From contig CALREW010000001.1 in assembly GCA_943356415.1 (NCBI GenBank), positions 149,252 to 213,251 on the forward strand: a stretch of DNA of 64,000 bases. The letters run 5' to 3'. Source of the DNA: Candidatus Nomurabacteria bacterium. Its GTDB lineage: Bacteria; Patescibacteriota; Minisyncoccia; Phycocordibacterales; SBAW01. This document shows, piece by piece, positions 10,619-14,700 of the stretch. Each line of letters opens with the position of its first letter. Position 1 is the stretch's first letter. The notes beneath the pieces were generated by a model. It did no database searches. It saw nothing but the letters and a program-made list of their open reading frames with translations, and was not told the origin of the DNA. Made by a program: the position numbers and the translations under genes.

Positions 10619-11119
10619 TTACGCGCTAGAAGCTGCCACCGAAGCCAGACGAGGCCGCTGGCGGATGAGAAGTTTACCCTCCACCACCTCGCCAAAGCCT
10701 GACTCGCGGTACATCTCACCCGCCGCGCCTTCCATGACATGCGCGACGATGGCGAGATGCCGCTTCGCCATGCTGTCAGCCTCGTTGACGAGGCATTCGA
10801 TCAGCGCCGCCCGGAGACGCAGCAACTCTTCGCCGTCCTTGATGGGGGCGAAGAAGAAGTTGGTGATGATCCCGGCGTTGCCGCTCAACAGGTCGAGGTG
10901 AGCGAGCGAGGCCGTCGCCACGATCCGGCCGGTCTTGCCGATCAGGCTACGACGGACCACCGCGATGCGGCAGGATGTCATGACGCGCTGGAGGCCTTCG
11001 AGGGTGACGGACACGCCACCTTTCGAGATGTGGTGGAAATCGTCGACATCAGCTTGCGTCACGCACGAAGGGTGCAGCGTATGGGCTTGGCCATAGACGA
11101 AGCCAGTGTTCTCAATCAT
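10619..11119 (-). CDS. Hypothetical protein (GC-rich island); start placed at MIENTGF, track ORF extends to 11215
   Basis: ORF in about 62% GC DNA downstream of the GNAT gene on the same strand; no recognisable motif. Confidence 0.35.
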   Translation of the reverse strand: MIENTGFVYGQAHTLHPSCVTQADVDDFHHISKGGVSVTLEGLQRVMTSCRIAVVRRSLIGKTGRIVATASLAHLDLLSGNAGIITNFFFAPIKDGEELLRLRAALIECLVNEADSMAKRHLAIVAHVMEGAAGEMYRESGFGEVVEGKLLIRQRPRLASVAASSA

Positions 11120-11283
11120 GGCTCTAACCTCACAAGTTGCCAGTTGGGGAAACAAAGCAGATATTCGAACAGGTACAATCGATAAAACCATACAATAAAC
11201 CTTATATTCCGTCAATATAACGAAAACCGCCAGGGGAGACCCCGGGCGGTTTCGCTACTCACTCGTAGCTGGTGGATGGATAT

Positions 11284-11775
11284 TCACGTGCCGCCCGGGG
11301 TCCAACGATAGGTCCGTGTGTGGCGGCGCTGCACACCCCAGCCCTGCATCGTCGAGCCTTCGTAGAAGGCCTGTGCACCCGTCTTGCTCGAAGTCCAGTC
11401 GACGTGATCGAACTTCTTCTCACGCGCGACTTGGAACAGCTTGCGCATGACACGTTTGCCAAGGCCTCGGCCTTCATGTGCGCGGAGCGTCGAGACGTCA
11501 TTGACCGTCGCGAAGCGCTTGCCGACGTACTCCGCGAGCAAATGCGGCGTCATGATGGCCATCGAGACGATGGTGCCGCCACTGTCGCGCACAACCACCC
11601 AATACGCGCCTTGCGCAAGGACCATCTCATAGTGCCAACGCAGCTGCTCGAGCGACTTCGCAGGCAAGCTTTTGTTGCCAGCCAAATGCTGCATCAAAGC
11701 GGCGATGGCCTGCACATCCTTATCCGTAAGACGCTGTCCTCCGATCAACTCAGCCTCGCTGTAGGCTTCAGCCAT
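11284..11775 (-). CDS. GNAT family N-acetyltransferase (GC-rich island)
   Basis: Acetyl-CoA binding motif RAHEGRGLGKRVMRKL and C-terminal GAQAFYEGSTMQG. Confidence 0.7.
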   Translation of the reverse strand: MAEAYSEAELIGGQRLTDKDVQAIAALMQHLAGNKSLPAKSLEQLRWHYEMVLAQGAYWVVVRDSGGTIVSMAIMTPHLLAEYVGKRFATVNDVSTLRAHEGRGLGKRVMRKLFQVAREKKFDHVDWTSSKTGAQAFYEGSTMQGWGVQRRHTRTYRWTPGGT

Positions 11776-11863
11776 TGTCTTGGCCTCCCAGCCACTGTTT
11801 CAACCTCAGGGACTATAACCAACTCTCGTAGAAAAAAGTAGCGGACAGGGAAGTCGCTCCTCA

Positions 11864-11909
11864 AAAACAACAACGCCCGCGAGGAGTTACCCTCGGGGCG
11901 CGTGTTGAA
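11864..11909. repeat. Left copy of a 46-bp perfect inverted repeat (AAAACAACAACGCCCGCGAGGAGTTACCCTCGGGGCGCGTGTTGAA)
   Basis: Exact reverse complement found at 14154..14199; also hairpin-capable. Confidence 0.9.
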
Positions 11910-11935
11910 GTGATCCTTCGAAGTGATCCTTCAAG
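11910..11935. repeat. Tandem 13-bp direct repeat GTGATCCTTCGAA / GTGATCCTTCAAG abutting the left IR
   Basis: Read directly. Confidence 0.8.
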
Positions 11936-11946
11936 GTGCTGCGGCA

Positions 11947-12246
11947 TCACCTCTTCAGGCTGGCGATGACGTAGTTCGCCAGCGACCAGAGCGTGCCGAA
12001 ACCTGCGGCGACGGCGATGAAGGCCGACACGCCCCTGATAGGGCCAGCCGAAATACTTGCCGCGACAGCGACGCAGATGGCGCAAATCAGGCCATAGAAC
12101 GCTGCGCAGATCAGTTCCTGCGCGATATCGTTCAGTTCGTCCCACACGGGGAATCGCGGCTTACGGCGAGATGTAATGGACATTGTTCGAAGCCCTTCGC
12201 GCGAATGCCTCTGCACGAGCTTGATTGCTCTTAAGGTGCAGTGCAT
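11947..12246 (-). CDS. Hypothetical small membrane protein (99 aa, GC-rich) inside the IR-bounded cassette
   Basis: Two predicted TM helices; GC-rich codon usage. Confidence 0.35.
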   Translation of the reverse strand: MHCTLRAIKLVQRHSREGLRTMSITSRRKPRFPVWDELNDIAQELICAAFYGLICAICVAVAASISAGPIRGVSAFIAVAAGFGTLWSLANYVIASLKR

Positions 12247-12748
12247 TTAACCAAACATACGGTACCACACTTATTTAATTTAGCTAGCCTAGCCGAGATT
12301 TTGAACTAAATAGGGGAGACAGGCTTCCCTAAACCTCCATGATTTTTTGACTAAACCTTCAGCCGCGTTAACAACCAGGGAATTACATACCCACAAACCA
12401 ATCAGATTTATATACACGCGGTGTGTGTGGGGTAGAAGGTCTGTTGCCTTAGACTCAAAGCCCAGTACTTGGCTATCCTAGTTCGTCTATAGCCATACGT
12501 CGCAAAAGGTATATTGTGCGACGTATGTAATCTCTTCTCCCCTAGGGACTAGGATGGCCGAGACGGTTGGTTGGGGCTTAGTGCCCTACGACGTTGTGCA
12601 GCGCGTGGCGCGACAGAATGGCACCGGAATACTTTTATGGGAAAGAAGCGAGTGAAGGCTGAATCTAATAGGTCTACCCCCCCCCCGACCGATTTGCTCA
12701 GGAAACCGGGGGAGACCGGCTTCCCTATTTCAGCGTAGAATTGTACCT

Positions 12749-13192
12749 GTGAGACATCAGGAGCTCGTAAAACGGATTCGCGAAAATGCTGAGCAAGGCC
12801 GGAGATTGGAAGCCTTTTTGCTACTCATGGCGTACATAGAGACTATTTTCAACATGCACCTGCAGTTTGTAATTATGATGGCTGCGAATAAGCAAATTGG
12901 TGATAGTAAGCCAATGGATACTGTCTATAAGAAAATTGAGCGGATGCGTATCTCAGAAGTTTTGCAAATGCTTTTTGACATGCAGCAGATCGAAAAAGAG
13001 TTTAAGAACAACCTGGGAAAACTTTTTGATAAGAGGAATCAATTAATACACGACGTCGTAAGTCACGTCATGTTCAACGTTAAATTAGACGACTCACTTA
13101 CTGAACCTTACGAGCAGGCTTTTACTGTGTTGGAAACGGAAATTTTTAAAAGCTGGACTGCCACACTTGATCAGCAATTTACAGGCAATTAG
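12749..13192 (+). CDS. Hypothetical all-alpha protein with a HEPN-like Rx4H motif (KRNQLIHD); candidate RNase toxin or abortive-infection effector
   Basis: RNQLIH matches the R-[NHQ]-x3-H HEPN catalytic motif; AT-rich; GTG start; convergent with a membrane protein gene. Confidence 0.45.
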   Translation: MRHQELVKRIRENAEQGRRLEAFLLLMAYIETIFNMHLQFVIMMAANKQIGDSKPMDTVYKKIERMRISEVLQMLFDMQQIEKEFKNNLGKLFDKRNQLIHDVVSHVMFNVKLDDSLTEPYEQAFTVLETEIFKSWTATLDQQFTGN

Positions 13193-13232
13193 GCAGAGAA
13201 GTCTTGTCTGAAAGAAAAAGTATTTACATCCC

Positions 13233-13958
13233 CTACCTGTCTCTACTTTTGCGCCACGCGATAAACTCTAGGAACGGCAAGCAGACAAAATGACAGGCTT
13301 CTCTAAACAGGAGAAGTGTGCCGATCCAGACACTTAGAACAACGTAGTAAATCAAAATCGCATAATCCCATTTGAATATAGTGTGTATACATGCGTCTGA
13401 TCCCGGGCCAATATCGATTGCCATATGCTGCCCAGAGCTGAAGGTTGTTGTAGAAATTGGCGTCGCCGCAAAGAGAGTAGTTGTTGAAGCCATCCGTTTT
13501 CCAAGTTCACTTATGGGCAAGTTAGACCAAATGGTTTTTTCGTCGTGAACACTCAAACTAACGGAGGCGTCAGTTGGTGTCATTACCACATAAGAAACTT
13601 CGCTTGCTTGTGAATATTCTCCAGTTTCTACATTTCTAAATCCGACTGACTTTAGGTTGTTTGACGCCACAACATCAGCAATAAACCAACTGTCGGTAAA
13701 TTTGATTATAGGTTCCAGTGATTTCAATTCTTCATACGTAAAAGTAGTACTCTGGTTATTTCTTTCAGGGATTAGGCAAAAATCTCTTGAATAATGCTTA
13801 TCAACCCACACTAAAAATATAAAAGGGACGACAAGAATAAAAAGTGTTTTCCTAAATTGAGCACTGGCAAATAATCTAACAAGGAAATCTTTGACTTGCG
13901 GACCTTTCGAAGCAAGCCATTTTAACCTGACCCACCATTTAATAAGCACTTCTTTCAC
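13233..13958 (-). CDS. Hypothetical membrane protein (TM helices at both ends, central extracytoplasmic domain), AT-rich
   Basis: Hydrophobic segments LFILVVPFIFLVWV and YAILIYYVVLSVWIGTLLLF; convergent partner of the HEPN-like ORF. Confidence 0.45.
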   Translation of the reverse strand: MKEVLIKWWVRLKWLASKGPQVKDFLVRLFASAQFRKTLFILVVPFIFLVWVDKHYSRDFCLIPERNNQSTTFTYEELKSLEPIIKFTDSWFIADVVASNNLKSVGFRNVETGEYSQASEVSYVVMTPTDASVSLSVHDEKTIWSNLPISELGKRMASTTTLFAATPISTTTFSSGQHMAIDIGPGSDACIHTIFKWDYAILIYYVVLSVWIGTLLLFREACHFVCLPFLEFIAWRKSRDR

Positions 13959-14153
13959 GTTCTAACCCTACCACCAATAATTTACGCTAGAAGGGGTCTT
14001 CCCTTCTCCTGTAGAATGTAGCTGTGGGCTATATAATTAAGAAGAATATTCTACTTACTGGCGCTGGCTTCAGTGCAAATTTTGGTGGTCTCCTTGCTGC
14101 GGATAGTCCGAAACGACGAGGGAAAACCGCCAGAGTAATCGGTTCGGTTCGAG

Positions 14154-14199
14154 TTCAACACGCGCCCCGAGGGTAACTCCTCGCGGGCGTTGTTGTTTT
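14154..14199. repeat. Right copy of the 46-bp perfect inverted repeat; on the + strand it reads as hairpin plus T-run (terminator-like)
   Basis: Exact reverse complement of 11864..11909. Confidence 0.9.
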
Positions 14200-14244
14200 A
14201 AAACGGTATAATTAATCCCATACAAGCTTTAGATAATTTTCTTC

Positions 14245-14640
14245 ATGCAGATTCCTTCTTGGGCTGAGTTATATGCACCGGTCATCGCGCGCGTACTTAT
14301 GGGCGGTATGTTCCTTATGGCAGGTATCCAAAAGTTTATGACATTGGATACAACGGCTGGCTATATTGCCACGAGCTTCCTCCCTGCCCCGATGGCCATG
14401 GCAGTCATCGCAGCCATCGTTGAAACCGTACTCGGCGCGTCACTCCTTATCGGCTACCGCACCAAGCTTGCTGCGGCAGGCCTCGCAGTCTTTACCGTCA
14501 TTGCCACCATCGCCTTCCACACTGGATGGAGCGCCAACCAGATGCAGCAAGTCCTTTTTACCAAGAACCTTGCTATCGTTGCCGGTCTTCTCTATATGAT
14601 GGCGTTTGGTTCTGGTCGCTACGCAGTAAACAACAAATAG
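14245..14640 (+). CDS. DoxX family membrane protein
   Basis: 4-TM DoxX-like sequence (MGGMFLMAGIQKF...). Confidence 0.65.
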   Translation: MQIPSWAELYAPVIARVLMGGMFLMAGIQKFMTLDTTAGYIATSFLPAPMAMAVIAAIVETVLGASLLIGYRTKLAAAGLAVFTVIATIAFHTGWSANQMQQVLFTKNLAIVAGLLYMMAFGSGRYAVNNK

Positions 14641-14663
14641 GTTTTAGCTTCCCTGAACAAAAC

Positions 14664-14700
14664 AAAACCCCGGCTCACATGGAGCCGGGGTTTTGTTTTT
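14664..14700 (+). terminator. Intrinsic terminator, likely bidirectional: CCCCGGCTC-acatg-GAGCCGGGG plus T-run
   Basis: Perfect 9-bp GC stem flanked by A-run and T-run. Confidence 0.75.

What the first reader, a model, noticed from the sequence alone, without database searches (positions are those of the whole stretch)
12749..13958. HEPN-like (RNQLIH) protein convergent with a novel membrane protein in AT-rich DNA
The 147-aa all-alpha ORF contains KRNQLIHD, which matches the R-[NHQ]-x3-H motif that defines HEPN RNase domains. These occur in Abi systems, HepT toxins and Csm6/Cas13. Its only close partner is a convergent 241-aa protein with TM helices at both termini and an extracytoplasmic middle. 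Neither has an obvious housekeeping role, and the AT-rich pair sits inside an IR-bounded cassette. This is a plausible two-gene toxin plus membrane sensor/immunity or abortive-infection module of unknown type.
Basis: inference. Interest (0 to 1): 0.65.

Follow-up and report, generated by a model that had tools for sequence, protein, structure and literature searches.

The report
Solo HEPN-fold gene, unrelated membrane neighbour
The 147-aa gene is a real, previously unannotated member of the HEPN (DUF4145-like) predicted-RNase superfamily found in tiny "candidate phyla" bacteria, but nothing supports the idea that it works as a pair with the neighbouring membrane protein, which has no relatives anywhere.

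Summary
Both ORFs, the KRNQLIHD motif, the low G+C and a bounding inverted repeat are really there. The catalytic pair is R96/H101, not R98/H103.

**HEPN call: supported.**
- An exhaustive HMMER search finds about 27 distant relatives that align from residue 1.
- R96 and E31 are invariant; N97 and H101 are conserved in at least 90%.
- The family consensus just reaches Pfam's DUF4145 threshold.

**Toxin plus membrane partner: not supported.**
- The 241-aa protein is an ORFan.
- No homolog of it, and no recurrent membrane neighbour, lies beside HEPN relatives in 20 other loci.
- The genes are convergent, so they are not an operon.
- The closest relative (45% identity) sits in the same syntenic slot of another genome. 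Its convergent neighbour there is a Hypoth_Ymh HEPN protein.
- Many relatives are fused to sigma-70 region 4 plus a DnaA C-terminal DNA-binding domain.

**Best reading:** a stand-alone, probably dimeric, metal-independent endoRNase of a Patescibacteria-restricted HEPN branch, lying in a variable genomic slot. This is a new member of a known kind and of modest interest.

The perfect 46-nt inverted repeat, made of two outward-facing terminator hairpins, is the most unusual thing nearby.

The parts
12749..13192 (+). 147-aa stand-alone HEPN-fold protein (DUF4145-like, Patescibacteria-type family), GTG start
13034..13051 (+). Codons for R96-N97-Q98-L99-I100-H101, the Rx4H predicted catalytic motif, near the C-terminal end of the long helix 83-106
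   Evidence: R96 is invariant and N97/H101 are conserved in at least 90% of 27 sequences. All three are invariant in the second set of 20. The position and the polar residue after R match the HEPN definition in PMC3710099.
12839..12841 (+). Codon for E31 (AYIE motif in helix 19-45), the conserved acidic residue of the N-terminal half
   Evidence: E31 is invariant in both alignments. The family consensus reads E-S-L-L-K, which is Ex3K. The window protein has E31-x3-N35. PMC3710099 describes an Ex3[KR] acidic residue in helix 2 lying next to the active site.
13233..13958 (-). 241-aa ORFan membrane protein, convergent neighbour; no evidence of a functional link
11864..11909 (-). Left arm of the perfect 46-nt inverted repeat; a terminator-like hairpin plus UUGUUGUUUU read on the minus strand, pointing out of the cassette towards the GNAT gene
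   Evidence: The hairpin centroid is -25.6 kcal/mol with z -3.5.
14154..14199 (+). Right arm of the 46-nt inverted repeat; the same hairpin plus T-run on the plus strand, pointing out towards the DoxX gene
11947..12246 (-). 99-aa high-GC ORF (a small hydrophobic protein) inside the IR-bounded segment; ORFan, no detected link to the HEPN gene
   Evidence: no Pfam hit. G+C is 0.59 and GC3 is 0.72. A gene caller called it as 78 aa in L002.
12247..12748 (.). 502-nt gene-less spacer upstream of the HEPN gene, with 19-nt direct repeats GGGGAGACNGGCTTCCCTA at 12313 and 12709
   Evidence: No Rfam match. The plus-strand fold has z -2.5.

Best explanation
The 147-aa ORF encodes a stand-alone HEPN domain. 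It belongs to a divergent, so far unannotated, DUF4145-like branch that appears in candidate-phyla-radiation (Patescibacteria) genomes.

Shown here: it is a real conserved gene. It has the HEPN helical fold, an invariant R-N-x3-H at the end of core helix 3, and an invariant glutamate in helix 2.

Inferred from what is established for HEPN domains: it forms a homodimer whose two Rx4H motifs build a composite, metal-independent endoribonuclease site, and it cleaves RNA.

It acts on its own or with a partner encoded elsewhere, not as a module with the adjacent 241-aa membrane protein. The gene sits in a variable slot between conserved housekeeping blocks (MurG/GltX on one side, RNase T/L27/L9 on the other), and different accessory genes have accumulated there in different lineages. 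The 241-aa membrane ORFan is one such lineage-specific addition.

The most likely biological role is conflict- or stress-related RNA cleavage, as in other DUF4145/Ymh-type HEPN proteins. In many relatives the same domain is tethered to DNA by a sigma-70 region 4 HTH plus a DnaA C-terminal domain.
For: **Real gene and start codon**
- Exhaustive HMMER finds 27 proteins at E<1e-3, best 44% identity, aligned from residue 1.
- The homolog in L016 also starts with GTG, and DNA homology begins at that codon.

**Motifs**
- E31 and R96 are invariant; N97 and H101 are at least 90% conserved.
- L20, F23, Y29, E31, R96, N97 and H101 are invariant in an independent set of 20.

**Fold**
- AF2 gives pLDDT 87.7 and pTM 0.81.

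**Family**
- The family consensus matches Pfam DUF4145 at E 5e-5, 23.7 bits, against a cutoff of 23.1.
- 7 of 27 members hit DUF4145. Others hit HEPN_RiboL-PSP, HEPN_Swt1 and DUF3644.
- PADLOC CARF_HEPN profiles hit 4-5 members.
- These features match the published HEPN definition (PMC3710099).

**No partner**
- The 241-aa protein has no homolog.
- None is near 20 other family loci, and no neighbour family recurs except DnaX (3 loci) and a small GIY-YIG protein (3 loci).

**Synteny**
- The closest homolog lies between the same flanking genes, but with a Hypoth_Ymh protein as its convergent neighbour.

**Composition**
- GC3 of the HEPN gene (0.48) equals that of housekeeping neighbours, so it looks resident rather than recently imported. 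The 241-aa gene has GC3 0.38.
Against: - No enzymatic or toxicity data exist for any member.
- The window protein alone reaches no Pfam threshold. Its best hits are DUF3644 at E 0.015 and two unrelated families at similar E.
- Foldseek against PDB gives nothing significant. The best hit is the HEPN protein 2hsb at E 0.86, probability 0.60.
- Proximity of E31 to R96/H101 in the model, and dimer formation, could not be checked.
- A solo RNase toxin with no neutraliser is awkward, so some control mechanism remains unidentified.
- The housekeeping-type neighbourhoods of most relatives (dnaX, rpsI, rpoD, mur genes) fit a cellular RNA or DNA-related role at least as well as defence.
- The fusions to DNA-binding domains fit that reading too.
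Confidence: 0.62

Rival explanations
1. First reader's model. The HEPN protein is a toxin or effector, and the convergent 241-aa membrane protein is its sensor, immunity or Abi partner. Together they form a lineage-specific two-gene system carried on the IR-bounded cassette.
For: The two genes are 40 nt apart, share low G+C (0.40) and lie inside the same 46-nt inverted-repeat-bounded segment. No terminator separates them, so their transcripts could overlap. Membrane-associated HEPN proteins, as TM-HEPN fusions, are known (PMC3710099). One relative (L014) lies beside SLFN-type helicase, MazG-like and HNH genes, a defence-like setting.
Against: The genes are convergent, so they are not co-transcribed. 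The 241-aa protein is an ORFan. There is no co-occurrence in 20 other loci. The closest homolog in the syntenic slot lacks it. GC3 differs between the two genes, 0.48 against 0.38, which suggests different histories.
Confidence: 0.1
2. The HEPN domain is not primarily a nuclease. It is a dimerisation or RNA-binding regulatory module, MtlR-like. The stand-alone protein modulates gene expression, or modulates a full-length HEPN-sigma4-DnaA_C paralog encoded elsewhere in the genome.
Against: R-N-x3-H and the helix-2 glutamate are invariant or nearly so in both fused and stand-alone forms. Non-catalytic HEPN families such as much of MtlR have typically lost the motif (PMC3710099). No paralog is present in the 64-kb window.
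Confidence: 0.2
3. The functional unit is the whole 2.3-kb segment between the 46-nt inverted repeats. It would be an invertible or formerly mobile cassette whose orientation, or whose convergent overlapping transcription, controls expression of the HEPN gene and the membrane genes.
For: The perfect 46-nt IR is unique in the window. The arms are outward-facing terminators that insulate the segment. The HEPN gene is inverted relative to the conserved flanks when compared with the syntenic locus L016. A 2,303-nt Logan contig equals the inner segment, as expected if assembly graphs branch at the arms.
Against: No recombinase, invertase or transposase is in the neighbourhood. There is no target-site duplication (sequence). 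All three available assemblies show the same orientation. L016 has no such repeat. The arms may simply be a duplicated terminator. The segment is compositionally mixed, with orf99 at 59% G+C and the HEPN/241-aa pair at 40%.
Confidence: 0.08

Closest known systems
DUF4145 (PF13643) / DUF4145-like HEPN family, Pfam clan KNTase_C (CL0291)
   Same: Both have the R-N-x3-H motif at the end of core helix 3, an acidic residue in helix 2, and a helical insert between helices 2 and 3. The family consensus scores just above the Pfam cutoff. DUF4145 is already recorded as fused to sigma-type HTH domains (PMC3710099), and relatives here carry Sigma70_r4.
   Different: The window protein itself does not reach the threshold. 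The family is very divergent and, among titled genome records, comes almost only from Patescibacteria MAGs. It is not embedded in R-M, McrBC or TerD operons as described for DUF4145. The additional DnaA C-terminal domain fusion is not among the architectures listed in that paper.
HepT/MntA (HEPN-MNT, DUF86) toxin-antitoxin systems
   Different: No nucleotidyltransferase (MNT) gene is adjacent here or in any of the 20 related loci. There is no Pfam DUF86 or HEPN match.
Hypoth_Ymh (PF09509) HEPN proteins
   Same: This is another HEPN family of conflict-type contexts. A bona fide member (E 1.7e-21) occupies the position convergent to the closest homolog in the syntenic locus L016.
   Different: It is not homologous at detectable sequence level to either window protein, and the window has no Ymh gene.
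MtlR/YggD HEPN-fold regulators
   Same: They are the best structural superpositions by rmsd (3brj, 6kcr), and they are small helical proteins with a regulatory role.
   Different: Many MtlR members have lost the Rx4H motif, whereas here it is invariant. There is no mannitol-operon context.
Csm6/Csx1 HEPN domains
   Different: No CARF domain is present: the protein is 147 aa with a single domain. No cas genes appear in the annotated neighbourhood.

Membership tests
HEPN superfamily | Conserved Rx4-6H motif with a polar residue (N/D/H) right after R | tested here: met
   R96 is invariant and N97/H101 are at least 90% conserved in 27 sequences. All three are invariant in 20 sequences. The definition comes from PMC3710099.
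HEPN superfamily | Motif located at the end of core helix 3, with an insert between helices 2 and 3 | tested here: met
   Model helices are 3-15, 19-45, [54-65, 68-77 as the insert], 83-106 and 114-128. The motif at 96-101 lies near the C-terminal end of helix 83-106, as described in PMC3710099.
HEPN superfamily | Conserved acidic residue in helix 2, typically Ex3[KR] | tested here: met
   E31 is invariant. The family consensus is YIESLLK, which is Ex3K. The window protein has E31-x3-N35.
HEPN superfamily | Structural similarity to solved HEPN domains | tested here: met
HEPN superfamily | Metal-independent endoRNase activity as a dimer | not testable with these tools
   This needs biochemistry or at least a multimer prediction.
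Pfam DUF4145 (PF13643) | Score at or above the gathering threshold (23.1 bits) | tested here: inconclusive
   The window protein gives no DUF4145 hit. 7 of 27 relatives give weak hits, best E 4e-4. The HMM consensus of the family scores 23.7 bits, E 5e-5.
HEPN-MNT (HepT/MntA) toxin-antitoxin | Adjacent co-oriented nucleotidyltransferase antitoxin gene | tested here: not met
   No such gene is in the window neighbourhood or in related loci.
Two-gene Abi/defence module (HEPN + membrane protein) | Conserved co-occurrence of the two genes across genomes | tested here: not met
   The 241-aa protein has only self hits. It is absent from 20 loci that encode family members. A different neighbour occupies the syntenic locus L016.
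Two-gene Abi/defence module (HEPN + membrane protein) | Match to a known or candidate defence-system profile | tested here: not met
   For the HEPN protein, PADLOC gives only weak sub-threshold hits: PDC-S58 at E 7.5e-4 and PDC-S31 at E 2.5e-3. It gives none for the membrane protein.
Transposable element / MITE with terminal inverted repeats | Transposase or target-site duplication flanking the TIRs, and multiple copies | tested here: not met
   No transposase or recombinase domain is nearby. The flanks differ: tcgctcctca before the left arm against aaaacggtat after the right arm. The window has only the two arms. Genome-wide copy number could not be tested.

The most novel reading that the evidence does not exclude
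The Patescibacteria HEPN branch found here has both stand-alone members and HEPN-sigma4-DnaA_C members. It could be a new class of DNA-tethered RNases or regulators acting at replication or transcription sites, which would fit the recurrent dnaX and rpoD neighbourhoods. In this genome the solo form would be held in an invertible, terminator-insulated cassette, where convergent antisense transcription with an ORFan membrane gene controls it. That would be a lineage-specific switchable toxin locus.
Probability: 0.08. Interest if true: 0.7.

Novelty: new member of a known kind. Interest (0 to 1): 0.3.

Why it matters
It adds a conserved but unannotated HEPN branch to the inventory of predicted RNases in Patescibacteria, organisms whose defence and RNA-metabolism repertoires are poorly known. 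The NCBI record apparently does not call the gene, and gene callers disagree on its start.

The family's fusion to sigma-70 region 4 and DnaA domain IV hints at an RNase or RNA-binding module recruited to DNA, which is worth a dedicated look.

For the scan itself, the result is a caution. A correct motif-based domain call does not make the nearest gene a partner, and the proposed two-gene system is not supported.

Tried and rejected
- **Word-indexed homolog searches** of both proteins gave only self hits.
- **Profile libraries.** Pfam, NCBIfam, PADLOC and PHROGs gave nothing above threshold for either window protein.
- **PDB sequence-profile search** with the family alignment found nothing relevant. 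The best hit was Ssu72 at E 0.12, which shares a chance ...RxxxxH-like stretch.
- **Foldseek against PDB** was not significant. The afdb50 library was not available.
- **Phage, plasmid and IMG/VR searches** found no match for either protein or for the family. There is therefore no evidence for a mobile-element origin.
- **Rfam** on 11700-14300 at E<=1 found nothing. Folding the 502-nt spacer gave only z -2.5 on the plus strand and z -1.2 on the minus strand.
- **Possible SIR2-like gene remnant.** I considered that the 50-aa ORF at 14024-14176 (GYIIKKNILLTGAGFS...) is the remnant of a SIR2-like gene. There is no Pfam support, so I dropped the idea.
- **Transposon reading of the cassette.** I considered it and rejected it: there is no TSD and no transposase.
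- **Assembly-artefact reading of the IR.** I considered that the inverted repeat is an assembly artefact. The left arm and its junctions are identical in two independent ENA assemblies, and both arms are in L001, so this is unlikely.

Full report
**1. What is at the coordinates**

The window has an ORF at 12749..13192 (+, GTG start, 147 aa) and a convergent ORF at 13233..13958 (-, 241 aa), 40 nt apart.

The 147-aa product contains K95-R96-N97-Q98-L99-I100-H101-D102 (nt 13031-13054).

The motif alone is weak evidence. R[NHQ]xxxH occurs six times among about 69 ORFs of this window, including in an obvious aminoacyl-tRNA synthetase.

Both genes have G+C of 0.40, against 0.515 for the window. GC3 of the 147-aa gene is 0.48, the same as the neighbouring housekeeping genes, which range from 0.46 to 0.60. 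Its low G+C therefore reflects amino-acid composition. The 241-aa gene has GC3 0.38, lower than any neighbour.

The 241-aa protein has hydrophobic segments at about 34-54 and about 199-218, with a weaker one at 215-233, and a beta-rich middle in a low-confidence model.

The IR-bounded cassette is real. A perfect 46-nt inverted repeat has arms at 11864-11909 and 14154-14199. It is the only inverted repeat of at least 24 nt in the whole window, and none is expected by chance.

**2. The 147-aa protein is a real, conserved gene**

The word-indexed search returned only the same protein, called as 121 aa. Another assembly's gene caller gave 105 aa. The source list shows ENA only, so the NCBI annotation seems to lack the gene.

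The exhaustive HMMER scan of 1.84 billion representatives found 27 proteins at E<1e-3. The best, P0003, has 44% identity and 148 aa. Nearly all hits align from residue 1 of the query.

P0003's gene also starts with GTG, and DNA similarity between the two loci begins exactly at that codon. The 147-aa reading with the GTG start is therefore correct.

In the 27-sequence alignment E31 and R96 are invariant, and L6, L20, A22, F23, Q26, A28, Y29, Y92, N97 and H101 are conserved in at least 90%. In a second set of 20 sequences L20, F23, Y29, E31, R96, N97 and H101 are invariant.

**3. It has the HEPN fold and motifs**

- *Model.* AlphaFold2 with the 20-sequence alignment gives pLDDT 87.7 and pTM 0.81. 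The helices are 3-15, 19-45, 54-65, 68-77, 83-106, 114-128 and 131-145.
- *Foldseek.* Nothing is significant. The best hit is 2hsb at E 0.86, although the plausible hits are again HEPN.
- *Published definition.* Anantharaman et al. 2013 (PMC3710099) describe four features. The Rx4-6H motif sits at the end of helix 3. The residue after R is polar. Helix 2 carries a conserved acidic residue, typically Ex3[KR]. An insert lies between helices 2 and 3.
- *Match to that definition.* All four features are present. RNx3H lies near the end of helix 83-106. E31 lies in helix 19-45, and the family consensus reads E-S-L-L-K. A two-helix insert spans residues 54-77.
- *Sequence profiles.* The window protein alone gives only sub-threshold hits. 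One is DUF3644 at E 0.015, a family that the same paper lists as HEPN.
- *Family-level profile hits.* 7 of 27 relatives hit DUF4145, 2 hit HEPN_RiboL-PSP and 1 hits HEPN_Swt1. PADLOC CARF_HEPN profiles hit 4-5 relatives. The HMM consensus of the family scores 23.7 bits (E 5e-5) on DUF4145, just above its 23.1-bit cutoff, over the region containing the motif.

I therefore file the protein in the HEPN superfamily, closest to the DUF4145-like assemblage, as a divergent branch that current libraries do not annotate.

**4. Who has it and in what form**

The titled genome records that carry relatives are Saccharibacteria, Moranbacteria, Kaiserbacteria and Minisyncoccia MAGs. One "Gammaproteobacteria" MAG gives only a partial match.

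About half of the members are stand-alone, at 140-200 aa. Many others are about 300-320 aa, with C-terminal Sigma70_r4 (PF04545) and Bac_DnaA_C (PF08299, best E 3e-25). A third form of 261-317 aa has a different C-terminal extension (L013, L014).

No family member was found in IMG/VR, or in the phage or plasmid collections.

**5. Is the membrane protein a partner?**

Nothing supports it.

- The 241-aa protein has only self hits.
- It matches no profile library and no phage or plasmid sequence.
- I collected 20 other loci that encode family members. None encodes anything similar to the 241-aa protein within 3.5-8 kb.
- All-against-all comparison of neighbours shows no recurrent partner. DnaX recurs in 3 loci and a small GIY-YIG protein in 3. 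The rest are pairwise coincidences or shared synteny.
- Neighbourhoods are mostly housekeeping: dnaX, rpsI, rpoD, mur genes and M23 peptidase. One, L014, looks like a defence islet, with an SLFN-group-3 helicase, a MazG-like protein and an HNH nuclease.

The most telling case is the closest homolog, in L016. It lies in the same slot, between MurG/GltX/peptidase on one side and RNase T/L27/L9 on the other. Its convergent neighbour is a 292-aa Hypoth_Ymh protein (PF09509, E 1.7e-21), itself a HEPN family, and not a membrane protein.

So the HEPN gene is the conserved element of a variable slot, and the 241-aa ORFan is a lineage-specific addition. The two window genes are convergent and cannot form an operon.

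**6. Mechanism**

*Shown:* a conserved gene, the HEPN fold, and conserved catalytic-type residues.

*Inferred from established HEPN biology:* dimerisation brings two Rx4H motifs together into a metal-independent endoRNase site, with E31 assisting. The substrate and the trigger are unknown.

No MNT antitoxin, CARF domain or other neutraliser is present. Control must therefore come from elsewhere, for example low expression from the GTG start with no visible Shine-Dalgarno sequence, a partner encoded elsewhere, or substrate restriction.

The invariant motif in both the solo and the DNA-binding-fused forms argues for catalysis rather than a purely structural role. An MtlR-like regulatory role remains the main rival, at about 0.2.

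**7. The inverted repeat**

Each arm folds into a GC-rich hairpin followed by UUGUUGUUUU (centroid -25.6 kcal/mol). Each is oriented so that transcription leaving the segment is terminated before the GNAT gene on the left or the DoxX gene on the right.

There is no convincing terminator between the two convergent genes. Transcripts of each could therefore run antisense through the other.

Relative to the conserved flanks, the HEPN gene is inverted compared with L016. That is compatible with, but does not prove, past inversion between the arms. L016 has no such repeat.

No recombinase or target-site duplication is present, and all available assemblies share one orientation. A 2,303-nt Logan contig carrying the 241-aa protein matches the inner 2,244 nt plus k-mer overlaps, as expected if the assembly graph breaks at the arms.

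I regard the arms as a duplicated terminator that may permit RecA-type inversion. Its function is unproven.

**8. Verdict**

- The HEPN interpretation is supported.
- The two-gene toxin/membrane module is not supported.
- This is a new member, in effect a new unannotated branch, of a known superfamily.
- Interest is modest, at 0.3.
- The domain fusions in relatives and the unusual perfect inverted repeat are the points most worth following.

Noticed in passing
window 11864-11909 and 14154-14199: A perfect 46-nt inverted repeat, the only one of at least 24 nt in 64 kb, encloses 2,244 nt. Each arm is an outward-facing intrinsic-terminator-like hairpin. The enclosed HEPN gene is inverted relative to the conserved flanks when compared with the syntenic locus L016. 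This may be an invertible, insulated segment or just a duplicated terminator.
   Followed up: partly
relatives P0006, P0014, P0021, P0025, P0031-P0041 (e.g. L010:8001-8918, L011:8001-8942, L018:3795-4745, L020:3091-3993): Many family members are fusions of about 300 aa: N-terminal HEPN (invariant RNx3H), then sigma-70 region 4 HTH, then the DnaA C-terminal (domain IV) DNA-binding domain. This architecture is not listed in the 2013 HEPN survey. dnaX is the upstream neighbour in 3 of 20 loci, and rpoD in one.
   Followed up: partly
L016:6476-7354 (-): In the syntenic locus of the closest relative, the gene convergent to the HEPN homolog is a Hypoth_Ymh (PF09509) protein, which is another HEPN family. 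That locus therefore holds two convergent HEPN-type genes.
   Followed up: partly
L014:5887-10781: A Kaiserbacteria relative (261 aa) sits beside a MazG-like pyrophosphohydrolase, a Schlafen-group-3/DUF2075 helicase and an HNH nuclease. This is a defence-island-like context, unlike the other loci.
   Followed up: partly
window 12247-12748; repeats at 12313-12331, 12709-12727 and 13291-13308: A 502-nt gene-less spacer lies upstream of the HEPN gene. It contains two copies of GGGGAGACNGGCTTCCCTA, each a small hairpin, 396 nt apart. The second copy is 20 nt before the GTG start. A third 16/17-nt copy lies inside the 3' end of the 241-aa gene. There is no Rfam match, and the plus-strand fold has z -2.5.
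   Followed up: partly
window 10619-12246: A high-GC patch (G+C 0.59-0.64, GC3 0.72-0.74) holds a GNAT acetyltransferase (11284-11775, -) and an upstream ORF whose strand the gene callers disagree on (10619-11215 - or 10739-11185 +). It also holds the 99-aa hydrophobic ORF. It lies directly next to the 40% G+C pair, so the slot between GltX/M23 and DoxX/RNase T is a compositional mosaic.
   Followed up: no
window 11907-11932: An exact 13-nt tandem duplication, GAAGTGATCCTTC x2, starts at the inner end of the left IR arm (3-nt overlap), just after the stop of the 99-aa ORF.
   Followed up: no
window 12749-13192: The annotation is inconsistent. One ENA assembly aa (start at M27), another aa (start at M43), and no NCBI source is listed for the protein. 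Homology shows that the 147-aa GTG start is correct.
   Followed up: yes
window 14659-14699: A perfect 18-bp-stem bidirectional terminator (-31 kcal/mol, z -6.6) lies between DoxX and the 149-aa gene. Its 3' flank (TTTTTAAAATCGTAT) resembles the flank of the right IR arm (TTTTAAAACGGTAT). This suggests a common terminator/promoter-junction style in this genome.
   Followed up: no
L004:1012-4443: A 3.4-kb stretch with no called genes lies directly downstream of a stand-alone family member in a JGI metagenome contig. It may be an rRNA or other RNA gene, but I did not examine it.
   Followed up: no
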